A DNA stretch of 64,000 bases from a virus: positions 1 through 64,000 of the IMG/VR virus record IMGVR_UViG_3300012930_000012. One strand, written 5' to 3'. Below are positions 3,212 through 56,845 of this stretch, one piece after another. Both the position numbers and the translations under genes were made by a program. The stretch's first letter is position 1; each line of letters starts with the position of its first letter. A model generated the notes under the pieces. The model was not told the DNA's origin and did not search any database. It saw only the letters and a list, made by a program, of their open reading frames with translations.

Positions 3212-3652
3212 TTACTGGTCCCAGAGGTCGTTGTTGATTTCGTAATAGCCGCCAATGCGCACGCGGTAGCCGGGATCTGAGCCATCCATGTTGACCTCGT
3301 CCACCCCCTGGATGGAACAGTTGACAAAGTTGTACACCGGGAAGGCCCTGGTGTCCGGGCGCACCGTGATGGGGCCAATACGGGAGTCCGATTCCATCTG
3401 AGCCTTGTAGAGGCCCGATAAAAACTGGGTTTTGAGAAGGTGTATGGACACAGACACCCGCATGTACGGGTTGGGTGAGGGAACACCTCCCGTCTGCGTA
3501 TCAATAAAGTCCGTCGCATCGCCGGCCAGCGCCGCACGGATGGCCTCCTTCCCAAGAAAGCCCACGGTAACGTTCAGCTCCGGGAAGTTGGGTATGACCA
3601 CGCTGGCGATAAGCCGGTTGAGCGTACCCTGGTCGATTAGGGGATTCGGCAT
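3212..3652 (-). CDS. Tail tube protein
   Basis: 146 aa beta-rich, follows sheath; NP.I.QGTLNRL motif. Confidence 0.75.
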   Translation of the reverse strand: MPNPLIDQGTLNRLIASVVIPNFPELNVTVGFLGKEAIRAALAGDATDFIDTQTGGVPSPNPYMRVSVSIHLLKTQFLSGLYKAQMESDSRIGPITVRPDTRAFPVYNFVNCSIQGVDEVNMDGSDPGYRVRIGGYYEINNDLWDQ

Positions 3653-6011: not shown

Positions 6012-7271
6012 TTAAGAAACAACGACGGTGATTGTTTGTGTTACCTGGCCGTAAAGGTTGCCCGCCCTAACCGCGACAACGTACGTGCCAGGCACCGGGG
6101 GAGTGTTGAATACGAGCACACCCAAAGTAGTGATGCGGAACCATTCCGCGTTAACCCCTGAGAGCGCGAATGTGATGCCGGCCATACTGGACACCACCAC
6201 AACCGTTACCTGAGTCTCCGGCGCCGTGATGGCTATTGTGGCCGTGGGGCCGCCACCGTTGGAGGTGATAACCGGGGGTGCGGAACCCAAGAAGTAGTTG
6301 ACGATGATTGTCTTTATAAGCTGGCGCGCTGCGTTGCGTGCATCCGTCTGGTAGTAACTGACCTCGTAGTCGATGCTTTTGCGCTGGGCGAGCGTGTTGA
6401 ACTCCACCTGGGTACGCTTATCATCGCGCATGGCCGGCATGTTCATAACGCCCAGCAGGTCCGTGTTAACGGAAAACTGGTTCACGAAGTCCACAAACTC
6501 CATGGCATCCGAATTTCGGACGCCATATAGCGTCACCCGGACCATGTCACGCATAAGCTGGGAGTGGCTGAGCTTTGCGTCCAGGTTGGGCGCCGCGGCC
6601 AGCGCCATGGTGCCCCCTGGCTCCACGTGCACTGTGCCATACGGTGGCACCTGGTTCTGGGGTGCCAGGAACGATGGATAAAGGGTGAAGACCGGCCCGG
6701 CAAAATCCTCGTAGTCGGGCTTCACGTAGTTGTTCATGGACAACCAGATGGGCAACGAATTTGACACCACGACATTGTCGGTGTCAATTTGAGTCGGGTC
6801 GTCGATGATCTGGGTCGCCACCACGGAATAAACGGCGTGCCCAACGTAGTGGAAGATGTCCGCCTGGCGGTAGAAGCTACCCCGCGATCCAAAGGCGAAC
6901 CTAATGCCCTCGTGCTCGCCTATGTACATGACGGCGGGGTCCACGATGTTTAGGTCCACGACCTCGGTGATGCTTGTAAACACCACCCGGTTCGTGGCGA
7001 ACGACTCGGCCTCTTCCTGGCTTAAGTCAGTTGCGTAGTGGAACGATCCCTGAGCGGTAAGTGAGAGCTTACCCTCCTTGGCCTTGGGCACCTGGGAGGG
7101 GTTTATTAAGTCTGCCCGCACCCAAAACACGGTCCCATCCACTGGCATAACAAGGCGCACATAACGAAAAAACTCGACCTCGCCATCGTAAGAGATCATC
7201 TCCAGCCCCGCCGCTAGGGCGGCGTTGAGCGGGGTATTTTGCTGGGCGACTGTTTCGTCTACGCTGACCAC
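6012..7271 (-). CDS. Neck/tail-completion protein with C-terminal cadherin-like domain
   Basis: VMPVDGTVFWV and VVSNSLPIWL motifs; position before sheath. Confidence 0.65.
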   Translation of the reverse strand: MVSVDETVAQQNTPLNAALAAGLEMISYDGEVEFFRYVRLVMPVDGTVFWVRADLINPSQVPKAKEGKLSLTAQGSFHYATDLSQEEAESFATNRVVFTSITEVVDLNIVDPAVMYIGEHEGIRFAFGSRGSFYRQADIFHYVGHAVYSVVATQIIDDPTQIDTDNVVVSNSLPIWLSMNNYVKPDYEDFAGPVFTLYPSFLAPQNQVPPYGTVHVEPGGTMALAAAPNLDAKLSHSQLMRDMVRVTLYGVRNSDAMEFVDFVNQFSVNTDLLGVMNMPAMRDDKRTQVEFNTLAQRKSIDYEVSYYQTDARNAARQLIKTIIVNYFLGSAPPVITSNGGGPTATIAITAPETQVTVVVVSSMAGITFALSGVNAEWFRITTLGVLVFNTPPVPGTYVVAVRAGNLYGQVTQTITVVVS

Positions 7272-37633: not shown

Positions 37634-37871
37634 TCTACCCATTGACTATCGACGCCGGCCCTGGAAGGCCAAGTACATAGACACCGAGTGTCTAGCAACA
37701 AATCGCTGGTGCATCTTGGGAGAATATCAAGATGGCACTGTTAGCATCACAGACGGAACAGACGATATAATGGAACACGTGCCAAAAGACGTGGCTCAAA
37801 ACATCGTTGATGCCCGTAACACCTTTGTTGACACCCTCATGAAGCACATTGGCTATGCACGAAACGATTAA
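37626..37871 (+). CDS. Hypothetical protein
   Basis: GGAG RBS, overlapping chain. Confidence 0.5.
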   Translation: MTSLPIDYRRRPWKAKYIDTECLATNRWCILGEYQDGTVSITDGTDDIMEHVPKDVAQNIVDARNTFVDTLMKHIGYARND

Positions 37872-38811
37872 CTTCCTAAAACGCGCACTATCCCGCGCCC
37901 CTAATGCCGGCATGTTCGGCTGCTACCACGTGAGCGAAGGCTACATGTTCGCCCAGAACGAAAGCCTCCAGGCCGTGGTCCCGCTTGAATCATCCGATAG
38001 CTTTTCCGTGCCCGGCGAGGAGCTTGAAGCCATGCTGGCGCGGATGCACAGCGACCCACACGTGGAAATAGGCGACGGCGAGCTACGCATCAAGAGCGGT
38101 AGGCTCCGCGGCAACATCCCGTGCGTGCCCGGCACCCCACCCAGCATATTCACCCGCGACGTCGACTGGCTCCCCCTGCCCGACGCCCTGGTGCCGGCGT
38201 TGCAAAAGGCCACCCAGTTCCTCGTGGGCACCAGCCTCATCGGGTGGACAGGGGGCGTGCGGCTCATGGACGGGCGATTGACGACCGTCAATAATCTGTG
38301 CGGCATTGACTTGGCGGTGCCGGGTTGGCAATCCACGCCATCAATTCTCACAAAGGATGGGGCGGAGTTTTTGATGGCAGATCCGCCGTGCGATTACGCG
38401 GCCAAGGCTGGGGCTTTGTTGTTCCGCTGGCCCGATGACCGCTCGGTCCAGTGCCAGCTTATTGACCAGGTGATGCCTGAGCTGGTGGACGACATCTTTG
38501 CCAAGGCTGGCCAGGATGCGCCCGTGGAAATAACCGCCGAGTGGCGCGATGCCTTCGCGGATGCCGCAGCCATATCAGATGAGACGGTCGAGCTACATGC
38601 GGGTCATCTCAAGGTGGGTAAAGGCTCATCCAAGGTCACCCTAGAGGTTTCCACGGCTGTGCCGGCGGACCACGTGTCGTACTGGAACACCAAGGTGCTG
38701 GCTCCGATGGTAGCGGTGGCCACCCATTGGAATCCGCTGGCGCACCCCAAGCCGGCGCTGTTCCGTGGACCGGGGCTGTACGGCGTTGTGATGGGAGTGA
38801 TGCGGCGATGA
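37855..38811 (+). CDS. Putative sliding-clamp (beta-clamp-like) protein
   Basis: ~318 aa alpha/beta repeat pattern, C-terminal F.G...GVVMG, directly upstream of polymerase. Confidence 0.6.
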   Translation: MHETINFLKRALSRAPNAGMFGCYHVSEGYMFAQNESLQAVVPLESSDSFSVPGEELEAMLARMHSDPHVEIGDGELRIKSGRLRGNIPCVPGTPPSIFTRDVDWLPLPDALVPALQKATQFLVGTSLIGWTGGVRLMDGRLTTVNNLCGIDLAVPGWQSTPSILTKDGAEFLMADPPCDYAAKAGALLFRWPDDRSVQCQLIDQVMPELVDDIFAKAGQDAPVEITAEWRDAFADAAAISDETVELHAGHLKVGKGSSKVTLEVSTAVPADHVSYWNTKVLAPMVAVATHWNPLAHPKPALFRGPGLYGVVMGVMRR

Positions 38812-41231
38812 GTGACAAGAAAGAAACCCCATCGCTCGCGGGTGGGCTAACGTTTGGGATGACCAGCGGCCCATACGATGGCCGCGAGGAGCGTCGTAAG
38901 AATAAGGCAAAGGTCGATAGTGCGTTGTACGGGGACGGGCTATTGGGGGATTCGCTTGCGCCCAAACGTAGCGGCGAGCTGGCCAACAAGTTCATGATAC
39001 CGCCGTTCACCGTGTTCAACGCGCGTGAGGGTTGGTGGCAGGATCGCAAGGCAGCCTGGCTGGCGCTGGGCATCCAGAGCGAGCTAGGGCGCGGTGGGGA
39101 TGAAATTGCCGTGGCGGATGCCGCGGCGCTGGACAGCGCCCGCGCTCGAAGCAAGGCCAGTAGCCAGGCGGTAGTCGGCGGCCGTGGTACGGCCATGTCA
39201 AACGCTCTGGCACCCCGAAAACGCAACACCATCCATCGCGCAGACCCCAGCATAACCGTGGTGCATAACCCACCCCCATTGATGGAGCGGGCGGCACCGT
39301 GGGTGGCCCCGTCAGAACTCCCATCACTTCGCGGCGTGAAACGATTATGCGCCGATGTTGAGACCAGGGATGAGCAACTGCTTGAAATAGGCCCCGGTTT
39401 CCACAGGGGGACCTCCTACATCGTGGGGCTCGGCATAGGCACCAACGATGGTCGGCGTTTCTACTTCCCCACCAGACACGAGGGTGGCGGTAACTTAGAT
39501 GAGGGCGTGGTCCAAAAATGGGCGCGCGAGGAGCTAAACGCTTATGATGGCGAGCTGGTTGGCGCCCATAACATCTACGATCTCGAGGCGCTAGGCACCT
39601 GGGGGGTCACGTTTCCTAACGTTAAGGTCCACCACGATATCCAGGTATGTGAACCCTTGCTGGATGAGTGGCGCAACTCGTACACACTGGAAGCCATCGC
39701 CCAGGACTACCTTGGCGAGGGCAAAGTGGAGGGTACGCTCCGGGAAGCCGCGGCGTTGCACGGCGCCACCACCAATTCTCAAATCAAAAAGATCTTATGG
39801 AAATTGCCGGCCGGGTACGTGGGAGCTTACGCGGAGGGGGATGTCGATCTCCCTCTGCGCATTCTCCCGCTCCAGCTAAAGCGCCTCACGGAAGAAAACC
39901 TCGATGAAGTTTACACCGTGGAGCGCAAGCTCATCCCCATCTTGCTCGCCATGCGCCAGCGCGGGATACCCGTCAACACCGACCAGGCGGAGTACGTGCG
40001 GGAACAGCTCACTTTCACCCGCGATGCGGCGCTTAAGCGGGTACGGGATATCGCTGGCCCACAGGCGGAGCTTATGGCCCCGGAGAGCTTTGCCCAGGCG
40101 TTTGTGGACCGCGGGCTGACACCACCTCTAACACCTAGTTCGGGCAAGCCACGGAGCGGCGGAGGTTTTAACCCAGACAAGTTTTCCATCACCAAGGACT
40201 GGCTCAAGGCGCACCAGAACGACGAGCTGGCCGCAGCGCTGTTAGAGGGCCGCGGGGTAGAGCACATCATCAACACCTACATCAACGGCCATATCCTAAC
40301 GCACTCGGTCAACGGCCGGGTGCATTGTGAATTTAACCAGTTAAAATCAGAGGATGAAAAGGGAACCATAGCCCGTTTCTCATCCTCCAACCCCAACATG
40401 CAAAATTTACCTATGCGGGAGGAAGAGCTGGCCGCCATGATCCGCGGCATGTTCCGCCCCGAGGATGGTGAGACCTGGGTGCGGCACGACCTCTCCCAAA
40501 TTGAATATCGGCTACTGGCTCACTTTGCCGTTGGGCCGGGGTCTGAGGAGTGCCGGCGCCAGTACCGCGAGGACCCCAAGACCGACTACCACAAGCTGGT
40601 GGCCACCTGGCTTGGGATTGATCCCGGCGACAAGCACCGCCGAGTCCAGGTTAAAGGCATCAACTTCGCCAAGGGCTATGGTGCTGGGGCACGCAAGCTG
40701 GCCTACCTCATCGGTTGTTCGTTATCGGAGGCCGAGGAGTTCGTTGCCCTTTACGAACAAAAGTTACCGTTCGCCAAGAGCACCTACGATGCCGCCATGC
40801 GATGGGCGGAAAAGCAAGGATACGTGACGACGATCCTTGGCCGCCGGCAGCGCTTCCTCCTTTGGGAACCCTTTGACAACTACCAGCGCGAGAATCCTCC
40901 GTTACGGCACGAAGCCGCGCTTAAGGAGTACGGCCAGCGCATCAAACGCTTCAAGAGTTACGCCGCGCTCAACCGCAAGCTTCAAGGGTCCGGCGCCGAC
41001 GTCATCAAGAAAGGCATGGTGGATGCTTACGAGGCCGGCACGTTTGCCGTACTCGGCGCCCCCCTGGTCACGGTGCACGACGAGCTAGGATGGTCGGTAC
41101 CGAACACGCCTCAAGGTACTGAGGCGTGTTCAGTAGCCCATCGTTGCCTGGAAAAGGCAGTGACGCTCAAGGTGCCGGTGTACGTGGATGAAGGACGTGG
41201 CAAGGATTGGGGGGAGGCCAGCGCGGGATGA
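38808..41231 (+). CDS. polA: Family A DNA polymerase with N-terminal extra module
   Basis: Exo DVET/HNIYD/YAEGD; RFSSSNPNMQN; DLSQIEYR; R...KGINF..GYG; TVHDE. Confidence 0.95.
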   Translation: MSDKKETPSLAGGLTFGMTSGPYDGREERRKNKAKVDSALYGDGLLGDSLAPKRSGELANKFMIPPFTVFNAREGWWQDRKAAWLALGIQSELGRGGDEIAVADAAALDSARARSKASSQAVVGGRGTAMSNALAPRKRNTIHRADPSITVVHNPPPLMERAAPWVAPSELPSLRGVKRLCADVETRDEQLLEIGPGFHRGTSYIVGLGIGTNDGRRFYFPTRHEGGGNLDEGVVQKWAREELNAYDGELVGAHNIYDLEALGTWGVTFPNVKVHHDIQVCEPLLDEWRNSYTLEAIAQDYLGEGKVEGTLREAAALHGATTNSQIKKILWKLPAGYVGAYAEGDVDLPLRILPLQLKRLTEENLDEVYTVERKLIPILLAMRQRGIPVNTDQAEYVREQLTFTRDAALKRVRDIAGPQAELMAPESFAQAFVDRGLTPPLTPSSGKPRSGGGFNPDKFSITKDWLKAHQNDELAAALLEGRGVEHIINTYINGHILTHSVNGRVHCEFNQLKSEDEKGTIARFSSSNPNMQNLPMREEELAAMIRGMFRPEDGETWVRHDLSQIEYRLLAHFAVGPGSEECRRQYREDPKTDYHKLVATWLGIDPGDKHRRVQVKGINFAKGYGAGARKLAYLIGCSLSEAEEFVALYEQKLPFAKSTYDAAMRWAEKQGYVTTILGRRQRFLLWEPFDNYQRENPPLRHEAALKEYGQRIKRFKSYAALNRKLQGSGADVIKKGMVDAYEAGTFAVLGAPLVTVHDELGWSVPNTPQGTEACSVAHRCLEKAVTLKVPVYVDEGRGKDWGEASAG

Positions 41232-49598: not shown

Positions 49599-49838
49599 AT
49601 GCTAAGAGCCATTGAATACACAGACACCACCAGCAAGGAACCAGCAGCCAAGGAAATTTTCTCCTGGCTCCAGACCCAGGTGGACTACCTAGGCGGGCGC
49701 ATACTGGAACCCTCGCCGGCGAAGCCCGGCTGGAGGGTGCAGGTTATCTTCCAGGATTGCGGACACGATCTTCCGCTCCCGGATGGCTGCCGCCGCGTAT
49801 TTTGCCCCAGCTCCTTCCTCCACACGTTGGGGGTGTGA
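49599..49838 (+). CDS. Hypothetical protein
   Basis: Conserved AGAGCCAGGAG leader. Confidence 0.55.
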   Translation: MLRAIEYTDTTSKEPAAKEIFSWLQTQVDYLGGRILEPSPAKPGWRVQVIFQDCGHDLPLPDGCRRVFCPSSFLHTLGV

Positions 49839-49839
49839 C

Positions 49840-51420
49840 ATGAGCAAAACCTTCACCCCCTCCGCGTACCAACAAGCCATCTTCGACTGGGTTGCAGATG
49901 GAACCGGCTCGGCCATCGTTAAGGCGGTGGCAGGTAGTGGAAAGACAACCACCGTGAAACGATGTTTGCCTTTCATCCCCGAGCACAAGAGCGTGCAATT
50001 GCTCGCCTTCAACAACTCGGCCGCCAAGAGCCTCAAGGAGGCCATCGCGATGCTCGTTCAAGAGAGCCGCGATGGACGCCAGTACAAGGGCGTGCGGGCC
50101 AACACCTTCCACTCACTCGGCTACGGCGCCATCCTAAAGCGCCTGGCATTGAAGCCCGAGCAGATTACCACCACCGACAAAAAGATACGCAACGTGGCCA
50201 AGAGCCTGTTGGGCGATCTGGAATACGATGTTTACGCCGATTTCTGCGTGCACCTGGTTGGCTTAGCCAAGGGCGCCGGCATTGGCCCCCTGACTCCTGA
50301 CGTGGCCGATGCCTGGTACACGCTTATTTCCCACCACGACCTTTACCTGGATGATGTGGAAGCCACCGAAGAACGTGCCATTGTTATAGCGCGGGATCTT
50401 CTTCGCGAGAGCAACAGGCTGGCCGAAATACGACCCGGCTCCGCACCCATCATCGACTACGATGACATGCTTTATTTGCCTCTCCTTTGGAGATGCAAAT
50501 TGTGGCAAAACGATTGGGTTTTTGTTGATGAAGCCCAGGATACAAGCCCCGCGCGCCGTGCGCTAGCCAAACTTGCACTGCGGCCAGGGGGCCGGCTGGT
50601 GGCGGTAGGTGACGACCGACAAGCCATCTATGGCTTCACCGGCGCCTCGGCTGATGCGATGGACCTCATCCGCGAGGAGTTTCGTTGCGTGGAACTTCCC
50701 CTCACCGTTAGCTACAGGTGCCCCAAGGCGGTTGCCGTTAAGGTGCGTGACTTAGTGCCGTACTTTGAGGTGCCGGAGTCCGCCATTGAAGGCGAAGTGA
50801 AATCGTGCACGCTGGCTGATGCCATGACGGTGCTGGGGCCTCAGGACGCCATCTTATGCCGGCAGACCGCCCCGCTGGTGGAGCTGTGCTTCAATCTCAT
50901 TGGACGCGGCAAGCCCTGCGCGGTGCTGGGCAAGGATATCGCCACGGGGTTAGTTAGCCTCATCAATCGCCAAAAGGCTAAGGGCCTGGATGCGCTCATC
51001 GCGAAGCTGGAAGACTACAGAGACCGCGAAGTGGCCAAGCACATGGCCAAGGGCGAGGAAGGCAAGGCGGAAGCCGTATCGGATCGTGTTGCTTGCATCT
51101 TGACCATCGCATCGCACCTCAACGAGCGGGAGCGCACGGTGCCGGCGCTGGTGCGCAAGATTGAGGACATGTTTACCGAAGGCAACGACGTGCTCTCGCT
51201 GGCCACCATCCACAAGGTTAAGGGCCGCGAGTACCGCCGGGTTGCCATCTTGATGCCCGAGTTAATGCCATCCAAGTGGGCACGCCAGGAGCACCAGTAC
51301 CAGCAAGAACTGAACCTTCAATATGTGGGCTGGACGCGGGCCATGGAAACGCTCATGGAACTCACCACCAACACATTGCCGGAGCCGCGCAAGGTGGCCC
51401 CGGCGGAGGTGGTGGCATGA
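49840..51420 (+). CDS. Second UvrD-like SF1 helicase
   Basis: AVAGSGKT, VDEAQD, GDDRQAIYGF, SYRCP, TIHKVKGRE. Confidence 0.92.
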   Translation: MSKTFTPSAYQQAIFDWVADGTGSAIVKAVAGSGKTTTVKRCLPFIPEHKSVQLLAFNNSAAKSLKEAIAMLVQESRDGRQYKGVRANTFHSLGYGAILKRLALKPEQITTTDKKIRNVAKSLLGDLEYDVYADFCVHLVGLAKGAGIGPLTPDVADAWYTLISHHDLYLDDVEATEERAIVIARDLLRESNRLAEIRPGSAPIIDYDDMLYLPLLWRCKLWQNDWVFVDEAQDTSPARRALAKLALRPGGRLVAVGDDRQAIYGFTGASADAMDLIREEFRCVELPLTVSYRCPKAVAVKVRDLVPYFEVPESAIEGEVKSCTLADAMTVLGPQDAILCRQTAPLVELCFNLIGRGKPCAVLGKDIATGLVSLINRQKAKGLDALIAKLEDYRDREVAKHMAKGEEGKAEAVSDRVACILTIASHLNERERTVPALVRKIEDMFTEGNDVLSLATIHKVKGREYRRVAILMPELMPSKWARQEHQYQQELNLQYVGWTRAMETLMELTTNTLPEPRKVAPAEVVA

Positions 51421-51611
51421 GGACCTTCCACACACCTGAGCACGTGCGGGTGCTCAATGAATCAGTGGCCGCTCACCTAGACCCGCACACGGCCGTGGCC
51501 GCCTGGTTCAACGACGTGTCCTACGATGCTGTGACGCGCGAGCAACGCATCCAGGCCAAGAACGCAAACTACATCTACCTGTATTCAAACTCTAGCAAGC
51601 TGGGGGCATAA
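51417..51611 (+). CDS. 64-aa protein resembling Pol I fingers/O-helix fragment
   Basis: DPHTAVAA.F..V..D.VT.EQR..AK..NY...Y; GGAGG RBS, ATGA overlap. Confidence 0.65.
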   Translation: MRTFHTPEHVRVLNESVAAHLDPHTAVAAWFNDVSYDAVTREQRIQAKNANYIYLYSNSSKLGA

Positions 51612-52523
51612 ATGCCGCACATGACCTATAAGACCAAACGCTTCTCGCCGGAGAGTGAGAGCATCATCGACAAGGCCGAGGAGATTTGTACCGAGTACAT
51701 GGGCCAAGGCTACACGTTGACCTTGCGCCAGCTCTACTACCAGTTCGTGGCCCGGGGCTTGCTGGCCAACAACGACAAGAACTACGACAGGCTTGGGTCC
51801 ATCATAAACGATGCCCGGCTAGCCGGCCGCATTGACTGGGCTGCTATTGAGGACCGCACGCGCCACCTCCGTAAGCTGGCATCGTGGGACTCGCCCAAGG
51901 ACATTCTGGAAGCCAGCGCCGCCCAGTTCCGCTACGACCGCTGGGGCAGCCAGCCTACGCGCGTAGAGGTGTGGATTGAAAAAGACGCCTTGATTGGCGT
52001 TATTGAGCCCACGTGCAACGAGTGGCGGGTACCCTACTTCGCTTGTCGCGGCTACTCCAGCCAATCAGAGCAGTGGCGTGCCGGCCGGCGCTTCCTGGGA
52101 CACCGAGAGAACGGCCAGCACGTGCTGGTGCTCCACTTGGGCGATCATGACCCCAGCGGCATCGACATGACCCGCGACAACGACGAGCGCCTAGCCATGT
52201 TCGCCGGCACCGAGGACGGCGAGGACCTGGACCTCGAGTATGACCTGACCATTAAGCGCATCGCGCTCAACATGAACCAGGTGCGCCAGTACAACCCACC
52301 ACCCAACCCCGCCAAGCTCTCGGACTCCCGGGCCGCGGATTACATCAAGCGATTCGGGAACGAAAGTTGGGAGTTAGATGCACTGGACCCCAAGGTTATC
52401 GCCGCCATGCTTCGCCGGGAATTTGAGGCTGTGCTGGATGACGACGCCTGGGCTGAGGCCATCGCAAAGGAGAAGACAGCCCGCACCCGCATCGCCGAGA
52501 TGGCCAAGAAGTGGAAGGATTGA
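51612..52523 (+). CDS. Toprim-domain protein (Topo VI-A/JetD-like)
   Basis: TLRQLYYQ, WIEKDAL, GY.S, GDHDPSG, ELDAL. Confidence 0.8.
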   Translation: MPHMTYKTKRFSPESESIIDKAEEICTEYMGQGYTLTLRQLYYQFVARGLLANNDKNYDRLGSIINDARLAGRIDWAAIEDRTRHLRKLASWDSPKDILEASAAQFRYDRWGSQPTRVEVWIEKDALIGVIEPTCNEWRVPYFACRGYSSQSEQWRAGRRFLGHRENGQHVLVLHLGDHDPSGIDMTRDNDERLAMFAGTEDGEDLDLEYDLTIKRIALNMNQVRQYNPPPNPAKLSDSRAADYIKRFGNESWELDALDPKVIAAMLRREFEAVLDDDAWAEAIAKEKTARTRIAEMAKKWKD

Positions 52524-52527
52524 GGCC

Positions 52528-52770
52528 GTGACTACGATCCAGCTCCACCGCATCAACGCCACCACCTACACGGTTGTGAACACCCCGCTCATCATACGCC
52601 GGGTGGACCCGCAATTTAGCGGCCAGCCAGCCGCCACCTGGGACCTTGCCAGCACCAGCGGAGCAATGATTGAATCAGAGCTAGCCACACTGGCCCAAGC
52701 CAGATACCAGGCCGGCAAGTTTATCACGGAAACTCTCCAAGCTGAAATCAACGCATGGGATCAAGCATGA
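52528..52770 (+). CDS. Hypothetical protein
   Basis: GTG start; ATGA overlap downstream. Confidence 0.45.
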   Translation: MTTIQLHRINATTYTVVNTPLIIRRVDPQFSGQPAATWDLASTSGAMIESELATLAQARYQAGKFITETLQAEINAWDQA

Positions 52771-53672
52771 CCCTCATGCTCCCCCACCTCATTGACGATC
52801 TTGAAGGCCGGGTCAAGCATTCAACTTTAATCAAGATACCTGGCAGCGAGCACAGCGTGGATAACTTCCTCGTGCTCGTCAAACAAGCCGAAAAGTTCTC
52901 CTTTGGCGAGATACCACTCGAGCGTAACCCAAACCCCAAGGAAGCCATCGCCGGCATACCCGTGTGGATGCAGCCAGAGATCACAGAGGTAGAACAAGAA
53001 GCCTGGGATCTGGGATTAATTCCATTACCGGCGCCCATTTGCTGGTACGAATACATCCTCGGCGGGGAACCCAGCGGCTGCCTGGTTATCGGCACCGGAG
53101 GAGAAATCCGTGTGCAGCGAGTGGATTACAACGCCAAGCAGCGCAAAGGGGTTTTTAGCGGCGTGTTCGTGGAAAAGGAATCCCCCGGACAATACATCGC
53201 CCACGGCCCAAAACCGGCCACGGATTTCATCCGCAACTTACACAAAGCCGGCAAACGAGTGATGAACTTATCAGCCGATCATTACCTGGTCACCTACTTG
53301 ACTCTTATGCTATCATCCCTCACCACCGACATCCATGTGGTGCCCGCACCACATCGCTTAAACAAGTCTCGCATGAAAGCCGGCAACGCCCCCCTGCCTC
53401 CGCACCGGGTGGTGACCATCGTGCCGGACCGCTACGTGGACCGGGGGCCAAGCCAGGGGGGCACGCACCGTAGCCCGCGGCTGCACTGGCGGCGCTCCCA
53501 CAAGCGGCACCACGAACACCGCACACCCTCCGCGGTTTACTCCCCACACGAGGTTCACAAAGGGCTAACGGGGTGGTGGATCACGCTCATCGCCCGCCAG
53601 CTTGTGGGGAAGAAGGAAGCGGGTGAGGTTAGCCACGAATACTTCGTTCGCGATAAGGAGACGATGTCATGA
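52767..53672 (+). CDS. Conserved phage protein (SPRLHWRRSH motif)
   Basis: LNK.R.K.G..PL ... SPR.H.RR.H.R. Confidence 0.65.
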   Translation: MTLMLPHLIDDLEGRVKHSTLIKIPGSEHSVDNFLVLVKQAEKFSFGEIPLERNPNPKEAIAGIPVWMQPEITEVEQEAWDLGLIPLPAPICWYEYILGGEPSGCLVIGTGGEIRVQRVDYNAKQRKGVFSGVFVEKESPGQYIAHGPKPATDFIRNLHKAGKRVMNLSADHYLVTYLTLMLSSLTTDIHVVPAPHRLNKSRMKAGNAPLPPHRVVTIVPDRYVDRGPSQGGTHRSPRLHWRRSHKRHHEHRTPSAVYSPHEVHKGLTGWWITLIARQLVGKKEAGEVSHEYFVRDKETMS

Positions 53673-55069: not shown

Positions 55070-55386
55070 CAGGCCGGATTATCCACCTTGAATAAGAACG
55101 GGGTCGAGATAAGCTTCACGCTCGGACCGGATTCGTAAGTCAAGAAGACCTCCCAGTCGCCGGCCTGGTCAATATCGCCGGCGACAAACGTGTACTGGAC
55201 GTATTGATTAGCCAAGAACGTTCCCAGCGACGTCGGCACGGTGGTGGCTCCAAGAGACACGGCCGGGTTTGTCTTGATTAGGAAACTTTCATCGGGCTTC
55301 GTAAATGTCAACGTTAGCGCCGTCCATGCGCTCATGTCGTAGTTGGCATCAAACCTAAACAACACGCCGTACTCGCCAATCTTCAT
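55066..55386 (-). CDS. BppU-like beta-sandwich adaptor
   Basis: D.S....L...KPD ... GDIDQAG.W motif. Confidence 0.6.
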   Translation of the reverse strand: MKIGEYGVLFRFDANYDMSAWTALTLTFTKPDESFLIKTNPAVSLGATTVPTSLGTFLANQYVQYTFVAGDIDQAGDWEVFLTYESGPSVKLISTPFLFKVDNPAC

Positions 55387-56549
55387 GGGAATCTTCCCCT
55401 CGCATTGAAAGTGATGGGAGGCACTGGCGGGCCGACTCGTGTGCGTAAAGAAGCCACAGCACGGGCCAGCGCAAAGAGGCTTACGCCCACGAACCGGGAT
55501 GCCATCCCTACCACGCCCGCCGCTGCTGTAATATTCTTACCAACTTGACTCAGTCTGCTGGCCATGGGCGCGCTCTCCGCCTGAAGTGATTTGCCAACAG
55601 AGGTGATATCCAAGGTTGCCGCCGGGGCGGTCTGCGCTGAGGCGCCCACCGGTCGTCCCTGTGTTAAGGTGGCCAGAACCGAACCCAACGCCGGCAGCGC
55701 AACGGCGACCTGTTTCCCCAGAGAACCGATCGTGCTCCCCACCACCGTAATCACCTTACCCACCACGTTTCCTAGCTGAGCCATCGATACCGCTGACGCG
55801 CCCCTGAGCAAGCCCGACAGCCGCGAAACCGTCGCAACCGGCGTGGTGGTAGCGGCTAAGGGGACAGTGGCTCCCTTAGCCGCTGTAGCCGCTGGCGCCG
55901 TCGCAACGGCCAGGGGGGCGGTAGTCTGGCGGGCGGCTTGGGCTGTGGGGGCGGTTTGCGCCTGGACAGGAACGGAGGTGGCCCTGGTTGTGGAAGCCAC
56001 CTGGGTGGCTAAGGCTAAAAGCGCCTTGGCAACTGACTCCAAGGCGGTGGCCGTCGTGGTGGCTAAGGCTAGCGCGACTTTGTTGTTGGCTCGAAAAAGC
56101 GTTGCCGAGGGATTCGTGGACGCCGCTGCCGGCTTGCCGGTTTGCCGAACGTCCGTGGCCACGGGTGCCGTGCTCGCGGCAAGCGGCTTGCCGGTTTGAT
56201 TTGTGCGGGTGGCTGATGGTGACGTGCTTGCCTGGAATAATTTGGACAGAGATCGTACAAGGGAAGCAAGCGGTGAAGTTGACGCTTGTAGAGATTTTGC
56301 GGTCAGATTATCCAGTGAAGCGGTGGGCGAACTTGAGGCATTAACTGGCTTGGAGGTGGCATTATCTAACGAAGCACTAGGGGAACTTGAGGCGCTGAGC
56401 GGCTTTGTAGTGGCATTGGCCAATGAAGCGCCTGGCGAACTGGTTGCCTGAAGGGAGCTTGTGTTTGAGTTCGGCGTCGCCTGGGGCCGGAGCCGCACGT
56501 CCGGCGGGCTCGCCTCCCCCGCATAGAGCTTCTGGATGTCAAAAGTCAT
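55383..56549 (-). CDS. Ala/Ser/Thr-rich protein of ~19 tandem 18-aa repeats (fibre ruler-like)
   Basis: Start MTFDIQ (ATGA overlap); K(P/S)L.AS..P.A(S/T)L.... period 18. Confidence 0.75.
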   Translation of the reverse strand: MTFDIQKLYAGEASPPDVRLRPQATPNSNTSSLQATSSPGASLANATTKPLSASSSPSASLDNATSKPVNASSSPTASLDNLTAKSLQASTSPLASLVRSLSKLFQASTSPSATRTNQTGKPLAASTAPVATDVRQTGKPAAASTNPSATLFRANNKVALALATTTATALESVAKALLALATQVASTTRATSVPVQAQTAPTAQAARQTTAPLAVATAPAATAAKGATVPLAATTTPVATVSRLSGLLRGASAVSMAQLGNVVGKVITVVGSTIGSLGKQVAVALPALGSVLATLTQGRPVGASAQTAPAATLDITSVGKSLQAESAPMASRLSQVGKNITAAAGVVGMASRFVGVSLFALARAVASLRTRVGPPVPPITFNARGRFP

Positions 56550-56845
56550 GACGCCGTGAGGGTGTTGGTGGATGTGCCGAAGATGTCGGGGGCGCCGGTT
56601 AAGTAATCCACGGTGAAGAAAGTCAAGCTGCGATCCCCAGCAATCTCTACCGCATACAAGCCATTTGCATCGGATATGGCTCTTCCCCGCCACGCCTTTG
56701 ATACCGTTTCGAACACATCCACCGTGCAAAAGCCCAAGGCGGCGCCGTTAAGGTCCCTGGTTACCCCAGATACGGTATAGCGGGACGTTTGCTCCGGGGA
56801 AACGAAGAACCTTCCGGCGTTGCTGATCCCAATTGCTCCCGGCAT
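56546..56845 (-). CDS. Small prealbumin-like beta-sandwich fibre adaptor
   Basis: VSGVTRD.NG......V.....SDANG.Y; TGATG overlap. Confidence 0.6.
   Translation of the reverse strand: MPGAIGISNAGRFFVSPEQTSRYTVSGVTRDLNGAALGFCTVDVFETVSKAWRGRAISDANGLYAVEIAGDRSLTFFTVDYLTGAPDIFGTSTNTLTAS

What the first reader, a model, noticed from the sequence alone, without database searches (positions are those of the whole stretch)
51417..51611. Stand-alone 64-aa mimic of the DNA Pol I fingers (O-helix, motif B)
Seen: LDPHTAVAAWFNDVSYDAVTREQRIQAKNANYIYLYS matches the bacterial Pol I pattern D.H..TA..F.V....VT.EQR..AK..NF...YG (RxxxKxxxF/YxxxY). It looks more like host Pol I than the phage's own polymerase. It has its own GGAGG RBS and is translationally coupled between a helicase and a Toprim gene. 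Inference: a triphosphate/nucleotide-binding mini-domain or a decoy for defence systems that sense polymerases.
Basis: partly seen in the sequence, partly recalled or inferred. Interest (0 to 1): 0.72.

Follow-up and report, generated by a model that had tools for sequence, protein, structure and literature searches.

The report
Free-standing polymerase fingertip mini-protein in phage
A soil phage carries a real 64-residue gene that is a free-standing copy of the nucleotide-gripping fingertip of DNA polymerase I, one of a small, undescribed family of such phage mini-proteins whose job is still unknown.

Summary
Window 51417-51611 (+) is a 64-aa ORF with a GGAGG site 7 nt upstream, an ATGA overlap with the UvrD-like helicase gene and a TAAATG junction with the next gene. 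It matches Pfam DNA_pol_A positions 176-223 of 381 (E 4.5e-6, below the curated cut-off).

It is not a lone relic. An exhaustive HMMER search of 1.84 billion proteins found 14 stand-alone homologues of 46-73 aa and no full-length polymerase. Their profile hits KlenTaq and Klenow at about 1e-12. The triphosphate-contacting His, Arg and Lys and both aromatic O-helix residues are kept.

The 20 mini-proteins form one branch apart from 38 polymerase fingers (support 98/94). AlphaFold gives a confident three-helix fold matching Klenow fingers.

The phage's own PolA is intact and only distantly similar. The closest relatives lack the gene. Similar small ORFs occur in cultured Pectobacterium and Acinetobacter phages.

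It cannot polymerise, because motifs A and C are absent. Its function is inferred: most likely a nucleotide-triphosphate-binding accessory module. A protein-level fingers decoy is the main rival.

The parts
51405..51409 (+). GGAGG Shine-Dalgarno-like site, 7 nt before the ATG of the mini-gene
   Evidence: Read directly. The second family context, L096, has AAGGAGG 11 nt before its ATG.
51417..51611 (+). 64-aa ORF (P0001): free-standing PolA fingers-tip protein. The start overlaps the helicase stop (ATGA); the stop abuts the next ATG.
   Evidence: PF00476 E 4.5e-6. 14 short homologues. Clade support 98/94. Codon-position GC like neighbours.
51435..51470 (+). Residues 7-18: predicted helix 1. 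It carries the family-specific E8-H9 motif and aligns to the stretch just after motif A of PolA.
   Evidence: AlphaFold2 helices, mean pLDDT 88.7. Column table.
51480..51509 (+). Residues 22-31: D22-P-H24 and the helix N equivalent. H24 aligns to Taq His639.
   Evidence: Profile alignment to Taq 632-675. H24 in 16 of 16 and D22 in 15 of 16 non-redundant minis. Helix 23-31.
51537..51587 (+). Residues 41-57: O-helix equivalent with motif B. R44, K48, N51, Y52, L55 and Y56 align to Taq R659, K663, N666, F667, L670 and Y671.
49783..51420 (+). Context: UvrD-like SF1 helicase gene, upstream neighbour
   Evidence: PF00580 4.2e-22 and PF13361. Generic GajB/UvrD hits in PADLOC.
51612..52523 (+). Context: 303-aa gene of phrog_6247 ('DNA topoisomerase'), downstream neighbour
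   Evidence: PHROG 8.4e-112. No Pfam family. 118 relatives in IMG/VR.
38727..41231 (+). Comparator: the phage's own complete family A DNA polymerase, with its own motif B
   Evidence: PF00476 3.1e-54, profile 11-381 of 381. 28% identity to P0001 over 40 residues. 8.8 bits against the mini-family profile.

Best explanation
Shown: the ORF is a genuine, selected gene for a free-standing copy of the mobile fingers tip of a Pol I-type DNA polymerase. It spans the stretch from just after motif A to just after motif B, that is helices M/N/O. It belongs to a distinct clade of roughly 46-74-aa phage mini-proteins. It cannot be a polymerase, because the palm with the catalytic carboxylates (motifs A and C), the thumb and the exonuclease are all absent. 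It does not complete the phage's polymerase, which is intact. It is an accessory gene sitting in a variable slot of the replication module.

Inferred: the family keeps the fingers residues that grip the incoming nucleotide's triphosphate and sugar/base in PolA (His, Arg, Lys, Tyr/Phe, Tyr). The protein therefore most likely works as a small module that binds a nucleoside triphosphate or a nucleotide-derived ligand. That ligand could be dNTP/NTP, pyrophosphate or a nucleotide-derived signal. The protein would bind or sequester it during infection rather than catalyse anything.
For: Real gene:
- Ribosome-binding site, tight ATGA and TAAATG junctions, and no competing ORF spanning it on either strand.
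- Codon-position GC like neighbouring genes.

Family:
- 14 stand-alone homologues of 46-73 aa at E 2.5e-12 to 3.8e-4 in an exhaustive search of 1.84e9 proteins, with no full-length PolA at E <= 1e-3.
- One more member, P0017, found by profile search.
- A 'longer' search found only ordinary full-length PolAs, best 58 bits, against 74-109 bits within the family, or 50 bits for the divergent P0017.
- No gaps between positions 22 and 57 in the 15-sequence alignment.
- All 20 minis lie on one side of a branch against 38 PolA fingers segments, support 98/94, in 99% of bootstrap trees.

Fold:
- AlphaFold2 mean pLDDT 88.7 and pTM 0.74, with three helices.
- The best Foldseek PDB match is Klenow 1d8y_A (probability 1.00, rmsd 1.7 A over 46 columns). 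All listed matches (ranks 1-50, near-duplicate chains collapsed) are family A polymerases.

Ligand-site conservation in 16 non-redundant minis:
- H24 in 16 of 16, R44 in 15, K48 in 16, N51 in 15.
- Position 52 is Y in 12, F in 3 and H in 1. Y56 is in 14, with F in the other 2.
- These align to Taq H639, R659, K663, N666, F667 and Y671.
- In KlenTaq the triphosphate contacts Lys663, Arg659 and His639 (passage read in PMC7155079).

Precedent: a synthetic 50-residue Pol I peptide was reported to bind substrate and DNA (Mullen, Shenbagamurthi and Mildvan 1989). I saw only the title, in the reference list of PMC4082485. That the peptide covers the O-helix region is recalled.

Accessory status:
- The closest relatives (helicase 61-62% identical) carry other genes in this slot.
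- 5 related virus records hold no mini copy.
- The second context seen, L096, is again a phage replication-type neighbourhood with a strong ribosome-binding site.
Against: - No binding or expression data exist.
- In PolA the nucleotide site is completed by the palm (metal-binding carboxylates and the Gln613 backbone). An isolated fingers tip holds only part of it.
- The conserved residues could instead be kept for folding, or because the protein must look like a polymerase to a partner.
- Related small ORFs in cultured phages do not all keep the site. Acinetobacter phage MRABP9 gp07 has Tyr, Gln and Arg in place of His, Arg and Lys. CP14's 69-aa ORF lacks the position-52 aromatic.
- Net charge is near neutral (pI 6.9), so there is no strong electrostatic signature.
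- Genomic context could be inspected for only two independent members of the clade.
- The gene is dispensable in close relatives.
Confidence: 0.4

Rival explanations
1. Protein-level mimic or decoy. The mini-protein presents the conserved face of a polymerase fingers domain to a host factor or anti-phage sensor that normally recognises a family A polymerase. It blocks or titrates that factor. Nucleotide binding is incidental.
For: - The gene is accessory and sporadic, lying in a variable slot.
- Similar mini-ORFs in two groups of T7-like phages lie in the early region, among small genes of unknown function. These are PPWS2 ORF5 at 1964-2146 of a 44.7-kb genome, CX5 QFP93595.1, and MRABP9 gp07 at 3393-3572. 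From general knowledge, this is where T7-like phages keep host-takeover and anti-defence genes.
- The Friunavirus version keeps the scaffold but not the His/Arg/Lys triad. That fits a shape-based role better than a ligand-based one.
- Family-specific surface changes occur: W30 in 13 of 16, P23 in 11 of 16, the E8-H9 motif, and loss of the two PolA glycines.
Against: - No partner is known.
- P0001 has no match in PADLOC or PHROGs.
- In the window's own clade the ligand-contact residues are the most conserved positions. A pure shape mimic does not require that.
- The cultured-phage ORFs may be of separate origin: P0057 falls among polymerases in the tree, although joining it to the minis is not rejected (p-AU 0.448).
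Confidence: 0.27
2. Replisome accessory subunit. The mini-protein binds the neighbouring UvrD-like helicase or the phage PolA and tunes their activity. Its expression is coupled to the helicase through the ATGA overlap.
For: - The start overlaps the helicase stop.
- It lies inside the replication module, which includes an RNR, two helicases, a clamp-like protein, PolA, ThyX and an exonuclease.
- CP14's 69-aa ORF also lies in a replication/recombination module.
Against: - Relatives with a 61-62% identical helicase lack it.
- In L096 the neighbours are DUF7352 and unknown small ORFs, not a helicase.
- Overlapping start and stop codons are common in phage genomes whatever the function (general knowledge).
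- The own PolA already has a complete fingers domain.
Confidence: 0.1
3. Functionless relic. A polymerase gene fragment left by recombination that happens to remain open and is decaying.
For: - It is very short and below Pfam's curated cut-off.
- It is absent from the nearest relatives.
- Automatic pipelines label such ORFs as DNA polymerase fragments.
Against: - There are 16 non-redundant members at 33-58% identity to P0001, with conserved length, start and end, and no internal gaps across positions 22-57 in the 15-sequence alignment.
- They form a single well-supported clade distinct from polymerases.
- They have family-specific conserved residues not found in PolA.
- Ribosome-binding sites are present in both contexts seen.
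- The predicted fold is confident.
- There are no flanking polymerase remnants.
Confidence: 0.06

Closest known systems
Fingers subdomain (helices N and O, motif B) of family A DNA polymerases: E. coli Klenow, Taq, Bst Pol I (Pfam PF00476)
   Same: Homologous sequence (profile E about 1e-12). Same helix N, loop, helix O hairpin (rmsd 1.7 A over 46 columns to Klenow). Same His, Arg, Lys, Asn and Tyr positions.
   Different: Only 64 aa. It has no palm, thumb, exonuclease or motifs A and C. The motif B Phe is mostly Tyr. The two PolA glycines (positions 53 and 57) are not kept. It gains W30, P23 and an N-terminal E-H motif. It is a separate clade.
Synthetic 50-residue substrate-binding peptide of E. 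coli Pol I (Mullen, Shenbagamurthi and Mildvan, J Biol Chem 1989; Mullen, Vaughn and Mildvan 1993)
   Same: An isolated Pol I segment of about the same size, reported by its title to bind substrate and DNA. I saw the titles only, in the reference list of PMC4082485. That it covers the O-helix region is recalled.
   Different: A laboratory fragment, not a natural gene. The natural family starts further upstream and ends sooner. The paper itself is not held, so affinities could not be checked.
Split family A polymerases of some T7-like phages (exo and pol domains in two genes; PMC10201439)
   Same: Pieces of a PolA encoded as separate phage genes (abstract and passages read).
   Different: Those pieces together rebuild one working polymerase. 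Here the phage has a complete PolA and the mini-gene duplicates, rather than completes, its fingers. That survey removed sequences under 350 aa, so it would not have seen this family (Methods passage).
Small PolA-like ORFs of cultured phages: Pectobacterium phages CX5 and CX5-1 (QFP93595.1) and PPWS2 ORF5 ('DNA polymerase', 60 aa); Acinetobacter phage CP14 UYL86205.1 (69 aa); MRABP9 gp07 (59 aa)
   Same: Stand-alone ORFs of 59-69 aa matching the same PolA stretch. PF00476 E-values are 5.9e-12, 6e-4 and 1e-4. Scores against the mini-family profile are 50, 32 and 22 bits.
   Different: They lack the N-terminal helix and motif of the window's clade. P0057 groups with polymerases in the tree. MRABP9 gp07 has lost the His/Arg/Lys triad. 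Three sit in early regions of podophages rather than in a replication module.
Phage nucleotide 'sponge' proteins (Tad1, Tad2, Acb2); named from recall, no call
   Same: In concept only: small phage accessory proteins that act by binding nucleotide-derived molecules.
   Different: No sequence or fold relation was found or tested. Binding is unproven here.

Membership tests
Family A DNA polymerase (functional enzyme, PF00476) | Motif A with the catalytic aspartate in the palm | tested here: not met
   The match covers only profile positions 176-223 of 381. In the column table, residue 2 of the protein aligns with the Arg that 34 of 38 PolA segments have at that column. That this Arg ends motif A is recalled. 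Nothing precedes it.
Family A DNA polymerase (functional enzyme, PF00476) | Motif B, the O-helix RxxxKxxxFxxxYG | tested here: met
   R44, K48, Y52 and Y56 align to Taq R659, K663, F667 and Y671. The final Gly is Ser in P0001.
Family A DNA polymerase (functional enzyme, PF00476) | Motif C with the second catalytic carboxylates, plus thumb and exonuclease domains | tested here: not met
   The protein ends 8 residues after Y56. There is no further PF00476 match nearby or elsewhere in the record except the true PolA.
Family A DNA polymerase (functional enzyme, PF00476) | Score at or above Pfam's gathering threshold (34.3 bits) | tested here: not met
   26.3 bits.
Stand-alone PolA fingers-tip mini-proteins (the clade defined here) | Complete ORF of about 46-74 aa, homologous over nearly its whole length to other members | tested here: met
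   64 aa. Matches to P0002-P0015 cover most of the query, for example residues 2-57 or 1-58. Alignment.
Stand-alone PolA fingers-tip mini-proteins (the clade defined here) | Groups with the minis and apart from polymerase fingers in a tree | tested here: met
   20 minis against 38 PolA segments plus P0057: one branch, support 98/94, in 99% of bootstrap trees. Only 63 columns were used, so inner branching is unresolved.
Stand-alone PolA fingers-tip mini-proteins (the clade defined here) | Family-specific residues: W30, P23, E8-H9, Tyr at position 52, no Gly at position 53 | tested here: met
   P0001 has E8, H9, P23, W30, Y52 and I53.
Stand-alone PolA fingers-tip mini-proteins (the clade defined here) | No polymerase remnants flanking the gene (truly stand-alone) | tested here: met
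   The window's flanks are a helicase and a phrog_6247 gene. L096's flanks are DUF7352 and unknown ORFs. The other members' contigs could not be inspected.
Nucleotide-binding or nucleotide-sequestering phage accessory protein (functional class) | Measured binding of a nucleotide ligand | not testable with these tools
   Only the conservation of PolA's triphosphate-contact residues is shown.
Known anti-phage defence proteins (PADLOC) and known phage families (PHROGs) | Significant profile match | tested here: not met
   0 families in PADLOC at E <= 0.01 and 0 in PHROGs at E <= 0.01.

The most novel reading that the evidence does not exclude
Phages have repeatedly turned the nucleotide-gripping fingertip of DNA polymerase I into a free-standing 60-residue protein. 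It would act as a counter-defence or host-takeover tool in one of two ways. Either it soaks up a nucleotide-derived immune signal or (d)NTP through the retained His/Arg/Lys/Tyr site, or it serves as a polymerase look-alike that blinds a host sensor or factor. This would be a new class of domain-fragment mimic, with members in early regions of T7-like phages.
Probability: 0.22. Interest if true: 0.85.

Novelty: new variant of a known kind. Interest (0 to 1): 0.62.

Why it matters
The polymerase I fingers and O-helix are among the best-studied pieces of any enzyme, yet I found no description of a natural, conserved, free-standing version. Four full-text searches turned up nothing. The one large PolA survey I read discarded sequences under 350 aa.

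If the family binds nucleotides, it is a minimal natural triphosphate-binding fold and a possible new kind of phage sponge. If it is a decoy, it points to a host factor or defence that reads polymerase fingers.

Either way it is directly testable. The protein is tiny, is predicted to fold well, and has relatives in cultured Pectobacterium and Acinetobacter phages where the gene can be deleted. It also shows that automatic labels such as 'DNA polymerase' on 60-aa phage ORFs can hide a distinct gene family.

Tried and rejected
**Family members in IMG/VR.** Scans with P0001, P0002, P0010 and alignment A4 found none. The record of the window itself may be left out of those scans.

**GTDB genome contigs.** Alignment A4 and P0013 found none.

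**JGI metagenome contigs.** Alignment A3 gave 4 loci. L096 and L097 are the same phage with identical DNA over 6,206 bases, so no dN/dS was possible. L098 and L099 are ordinary bacterial Pol I genes of 895 and 899 aa.

**tblastn of the 95 loci then held (helicase and phrog_6247 relatives) with P0001.** Only the window's own copy matched.

**GenBank phages by tblastn.** For P0001, all 10 records matched were full polymerase genes or unannotated records. For P0013, P0015 and P0007, only 25 to 60 rows of 529, 189 and 126 records were seen.

**One hit dropped.** P0016 (411 aa, a repetitive protein matched over 26 residues) was left out of all alignments and counts as a likely chance hit.

**phiM1 M1-23.** This small toxic ToxIN-escape protein was considered as a possible equivalent of the Pectobacterium mini-ORF. 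It was rejected because it lies between an exonuclease and an endonuclease gene in the DNA-metabolism module, not in the early region (passages of PMC5377504). Its sequence was not compared.

**A -1 frameshift fusing the helicase to the mini-ORF.** The frame stays open back to 51276. This was considered and set aside. The upstream stretch reads as Gly/Pro/Ala-rich off-frame sequence, and homologues have their own starts.

**Self-association.** Complex prediction with 2 copies returned 'no answer' (score 0.00 against a mark of 0.42). This is no evidence either way.

**Expression.** No RNA holder was listed. One soil DNA run holds an identical 181-base contig over 51424-51604 at low depth. It may be the source sample, so it is not independent support.

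**ESM Atlas.** It listed short, mostly viral clusters with scores of 0.89-0.92: 63 aa with 196 members, 72 aa with 64, 48 aa with 112, 58 aa with 58, and 65 aa with 53. These are leads that the family is larger. They carry no alignments and are not counted as members.

**Closed or unavailable sources.** Supplements were not requested. Table S2 of PMC5377504 might bear on M1-23. The Mullen 1989 paper is not held.
Full report
**What is there.** Window 51417-51611 (+) is an open frame of 64 codons (P0001).
- GGAGG lies at 51405-51409, 7 nt before the ATG.
- The ATG overlaps the TGA of the upstream gene (ATGA, 51417-51420).
- The TAA at 51609-51611 is followed directly by the ATG of the next gene.
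- No ORF on either strand spans the region in competition.
- GC at codon positions 1/2/3 is 0.57/0.40/0.75. This is the same pattern as the helicase (0.62/0.43/0.72), the downstream gene (0.60/0.42/0.81) and the polymerase (0.65/0.46/0.70).

The window is bases 1-64000 of a 73,467-base virus record rated 100% complete.

**Neighbourhood.**
- Upstream is a UvrD-like SF1 helicase at 49783-51420 (PF00580 4.2e-22).
- Downstream is a 303-aa protein of phrog_6247, 'DNA topoisomerase' (8.4e-112). It has no Pfam, NCBIfam or PADLOC family.
- Further upstream on the same strand lie a ribonucleotide reductase, a second helicase, a methyltransferase, a clamp-like protein, the family A polymerase (38727-41231), ThyX and an exonuclease.

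So the gene sits in the replication and nucleotide-metabolism module.

**Is the Pol I likeness real?** Yes.
- P0001 matches Pfam DNA_pol_A at E 4.5e-6 (26.3 bits, profile 176-223 of 381). That is below the curated cut-off of 34.3 bits, as expected for one eighth of a domain.
- In the whole virus record this is the only PF00476 match apart from the true polymerase.
- Alone against PDB sequences the match is weak: E 0.12, Bst Pol I residues 375-419.
- The profile of the family found below hits KlenTaq at 1.7e-12, Klenow at 2.9e-12 and Bst at 5e-11, aligned to Taq residues 632-675.

That alignment equates D22/H24 with Taq D637/H639. It also equates R44, K48, N51, Y52, L55 and Y56 with R659, K663, N666, F667, L670 and Y671.

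The phage's own polymerase is complete: PF00476 profile 11-381, E 3.1e-54, with its own R...K...F...YG. It is only 28% identical to P0001 over 40 residues. The family profile gives it 8.8 bits, and only with filters off. It gives 37 other PolAs 32.8-57.6 bits, two of them bacterial Pol I genes from metagenome loci.

The mini-protein is therefore not a recent copy of the phage's own gene. It is much closer to canonical Pol I-type enzymes.

**It is a family, not a lone fragment.**
- A word-indexed search among proteins of 35-112 aa found only the protein itself.
- The exhaustive HMMER search of 1.84 billion representatives found 15 proteins at E <= 1e-3. Fourteen are 46-73 aa long, with E from 2.5e-12 to 3.8e-4 and 37-60% identity, matched over nearly the whole length. 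The fifteenth is a 411-aa repetitive protein matched over 26 residues, which I dropped. No full-length polymerase reached the threshold.
- A profile search added P0017 (74 aa). It showed that sources label some members 'DNA polymerase I-like protein'.
- Cluster look-ups added near-copies P0018-P0021 and showed contigs of up to 46.8 kb.
- A 'longer' search returned only ordinary PolAs of 214-1235 aa. The best scored 58 bits, against 74-109 bits within the family, or 50 bits for the divergent P0017. No fusions to other domains appeared.
- All 15 aligned members hit PF00476, best 1.3e-10.
- The 15-sequence alignment has no gaps between positions 22 and 57. Its invariant residues are H24, A28, K48, N51 and L55. 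D22, V39 and R44 are nearly invariant.

**One clade.** I built a maximum-likelihood tree from 20 minis (16 non-redundant), the matching segment of 38 PolAs and one Pectobacterium-phage ORF. The 38 PolAs were the 35, the phage's own PolA and two bacterial Pol I from L098 and L099. The tree puts all 20 minis on one side of a branch, with ultrafast bootstrap 98 and SH-aLRT 94, in 99% of bootstrap trees. A quick tree gave SH-aLRT 92.

Two caveats apply. Only 63 columns were used, so inner branching is unresolved. The PolA sample consists of the polymerases most similar to the profile.

**What changed and what was kept** (16 non-redundant minis against 38 PolAs).
- Kept in both: D22, H24, A28, V39, T40, Q43, R44, A47, K48, N51 and Y56.
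- Changed in the minis:
  - position 52 is Tyr in 12, Phe in 3 and His in 1, whereas PolA has Phe in 37 of 38;
  - the glycine at position 53 (PolA 31 of 38) is lost;
  - the glycine at position 57 (PolA 37 of 38) becomes Ser in 7 and Gly in 6;
  - gained are W30 (13 of 16), P23 (11 of 16), and E8 (9 of 16) with H9 (11 of 16) near the N-terminus.
- Residue 2 aligns with an Arg that 34 of 38 PolA segments carry. By recall this is the last residue of motif A. The mini-protein would then correspond to the stretch from just after motif A to just after motif B.

**Fold.** AlphaFold2 with the 15-row alignment gives mean pLDDT 88.7 and pTM 0.74, with helices at 7-18, 23-31 and 41-57. Foldseek against the PDB lists only family A polymerases (ranks 1-50, near-duplicate chains collapsed). 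The best is Klenow 1d8y_A, with probability 1.00 and rmsd 1.7 A over 46 columns. E-values are weak (0.17 and above) because the query is short.

Over all 62 columns the rmsd is about 7 A. Part of the chain is therefore placed differently from the enzyme. I take this to be helix 1, packing back on the hairpin, but I could not check that in the model.

**Distribution and context.** The closest relatives found have a helicase 61-62% identical (L003, L004). Between the helicase and the phrog_6247 gene they carry a 70-aa ORF and a 347-aa ORF instead. The 347-aa ORF has an N-terminus that looks DUF2786-like by eye, but I did not scan it. Five related virus records searched whole hold no mini copy; the one match lies inside an 852-aa polymerase frame.

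The only other clade member whose DNA I could see is P0006 on L096/L097, one phage. It sits after an ATP-dependent ligase gene, a DUF2786/DUF7168 gene and a DUF7352 gene, and before small unknown ORFs. AAGGAGG lies 11 nt before its ATG.

The gene is thus accessory and sporadic. It is placed among replication-type and small unknown genes.

**Related small ORFs in cultured phages.** Foldseek against viral models listed small proteins of 66, 60, 61 and 59 aa among polymerases. Following these and the tblastn hits gave five cases.
- **Pectobacterium phages CX5 and CX5-1** encode a 60-aa 'hypothetical protein' (QFP93595.1) in a run of small early-type ORFs.
- **Pectobacterium phage PPWS2** has its 92% identical ORF5 at 1964-2146, 2 kb from the left end, annotated 'DNA polymerase'. 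This protein (P0057) hits PF00476 at 5.9e-12 and the mini profile at 50 bits. In the tree it falls among polymerases, though joining it to the minis is not rejected (p-AU 0.448).
- **Acinetobacter phage CP14** (Saclayvirus) has a 69-aa ORF in its replication/recombination module (PF00476 6e-4, 32 bits).
- **Acinetobacter phage MRABP9** (Friunavirus) has gp07, 59 aa, in the early region (PF00476 1e-4, 22 bits). There the His, Arg and Lys positions read Tyr, Gln and Arg.
- **Vibrio phage KarBoss** has a weak fingers-like piece (PF00476 0.007) inside a 284-aa protein. That protein has one weak zinc-ribbon Pfam match near its N-terminus and Cys-x2-Cys pairs at both ends.

Free-standing or re-used fingers tips thus seem to have arisen or spread in several phage lineages. 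Whether this happened once or several times is open.

**How it most likely works.**

Shown:
- It cannot polymerise, because motifs A and C, the thumb and the exonuclease are absent.
- It does not complete the phage's polymerase.

Inferred: in KlenTaq the triphosphate of the incoming nucleotide is held by Lys663, Arg659 and His639 and by the backbone of Gln613 (PMC7155079, section 3.4.2; passage read). The mini-family keeps exactly those three side chains, H24, R44 and K48, at 16, 15 and 16 of 16. It also keeps the two aromatic O-helix positions. Meanwhile it is free to vary at 33-58% identity overall.

Surface Arg and Lys residues are not needed to fold a three-helix bundle. Their retention therefore points to a ligand or partner that reads the same face.

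There is an old precedent. A 50-residue Pol I peptide was reported to bind substrate and DNA (titles seen in a reference list; details recalled).

I therefore put a nucleotide-triphosphate-type ligand first, at about 0.4. A protein-level fingers decoy is second, at about 0.27. It is favoured by the early-region location in T7-like phages and by the Friunavirus variant that lost the triad. A replisome accessory role is third, at about 0.1. A functionless relic is about 0.06. The rest is left open.

**Novelty.** P0001 has no PHROG or PADLOC family. Its NCBIfam hits are only weak matches to whole-polymerase models. Four full-text searches found no description of a free-standing fingers or O-helix protein in phages. 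The broad PolA reclassification removed sequences under 350 aa (Methods passage).

I rate it a new variant of a known kind: a well-known domain living as an independent, conserved phage mini-protein.

**Limits.**
- Genomic context was seen for only two independent clade members.
- There are no expression data.
- No dN/dS was possible.
- The Atlas hints of larger short viral clusters are unaligned leads.

Noticed in passing
L003 1685-2937 and L004 1388-2640 (slot equivalent to window 51417-51611): In the closest relatives, the slot between the helicase and the phrog_6247 gene holds a 70-aa ORF and a 347-aa ORF instead of the mini-gene. The 347-aa ORF has an N-terminus that looks DUF2786-like by eye; it was not scanned. 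The slot is a variable accessory site.
   Followed up: partly
L103 1916-2770 (Vibrio phage vB_VibS_KarBoss, PQ758715.1): A 284-aa hypothetical protein has one weak zinc-ribbon Pfam match near its N-terminus and Cys-x2-Cys pairs at both ends. It carries a weak PolA fingers-like piece at residues 194-226 (PF00476 E 0.007). It may be a fused form of the fingers tip.
   Followed up: partly
L101 3495-3677 (Pectobacterium phage CX5); L102 1964-2146 (PPWS2 ORF5); L104 2492-2701 (Acinetobacter phage CP14); L105 3377-3556 (MRABP9 gp07): Cultured phages encode 59-69-aa ORFs matching the same PolA stretch. Three lie in early regions of T7-like phages. One is annotated 'DNA polymerase'. MRABP9 gp07 has lost the His/Arg/Lys triad.
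   Followed up: partly
window 37849-38811 and 38727-41231: The clamp-like gene (phrog_947) and the earliest TTG start of the PolA frame overlap by 85 bases, so the true PolA start is probably further downstream. The first roughly 427 residues of the 834-aa PolA frame have no Pfam match.
   Followed up: no
window 51612-52523: The 303-aa phrog_6247 protein is common in viral contigs (118 relatives) and is annotated variously as DNA topoisomerase, topoisomerase VI or DNA-binding protein in Xylella, Xanthomonas, Stenotrophomonas, Microbacterium and other phages. It matches no Pfam, NCBIfam or PADLOC model.
   Followed up: no
window 55383-56729 (- strand): A 448-aa ORF is rich in Ala, Thr and Ser, with many loosely repeated units of about 14 residues. 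No family was sought.
   Followed up: no
L096 5760-6020, 7020-7295 and about 6194-6305: Two DUF7352 paralogues lie near the P0006 mini-gene. A short hydrophobic ORF appears to start at a GTG overlapping the mini-gene's stop.
   Followed up: no
window 51276-51416: The mini-ORF's frame stays open for 141 bases upstream, in the -1 frame of the helicase gene. No slippery site was sought, and the stretch reads like off-frame sequence.
   Followed up: no
window 52755-53672: A 305-aa ORF downstream has no match in Pfam (only a 0.19 chance-level hit), PHROGs, NCBIfam or PADLOC.
   Followed up: no
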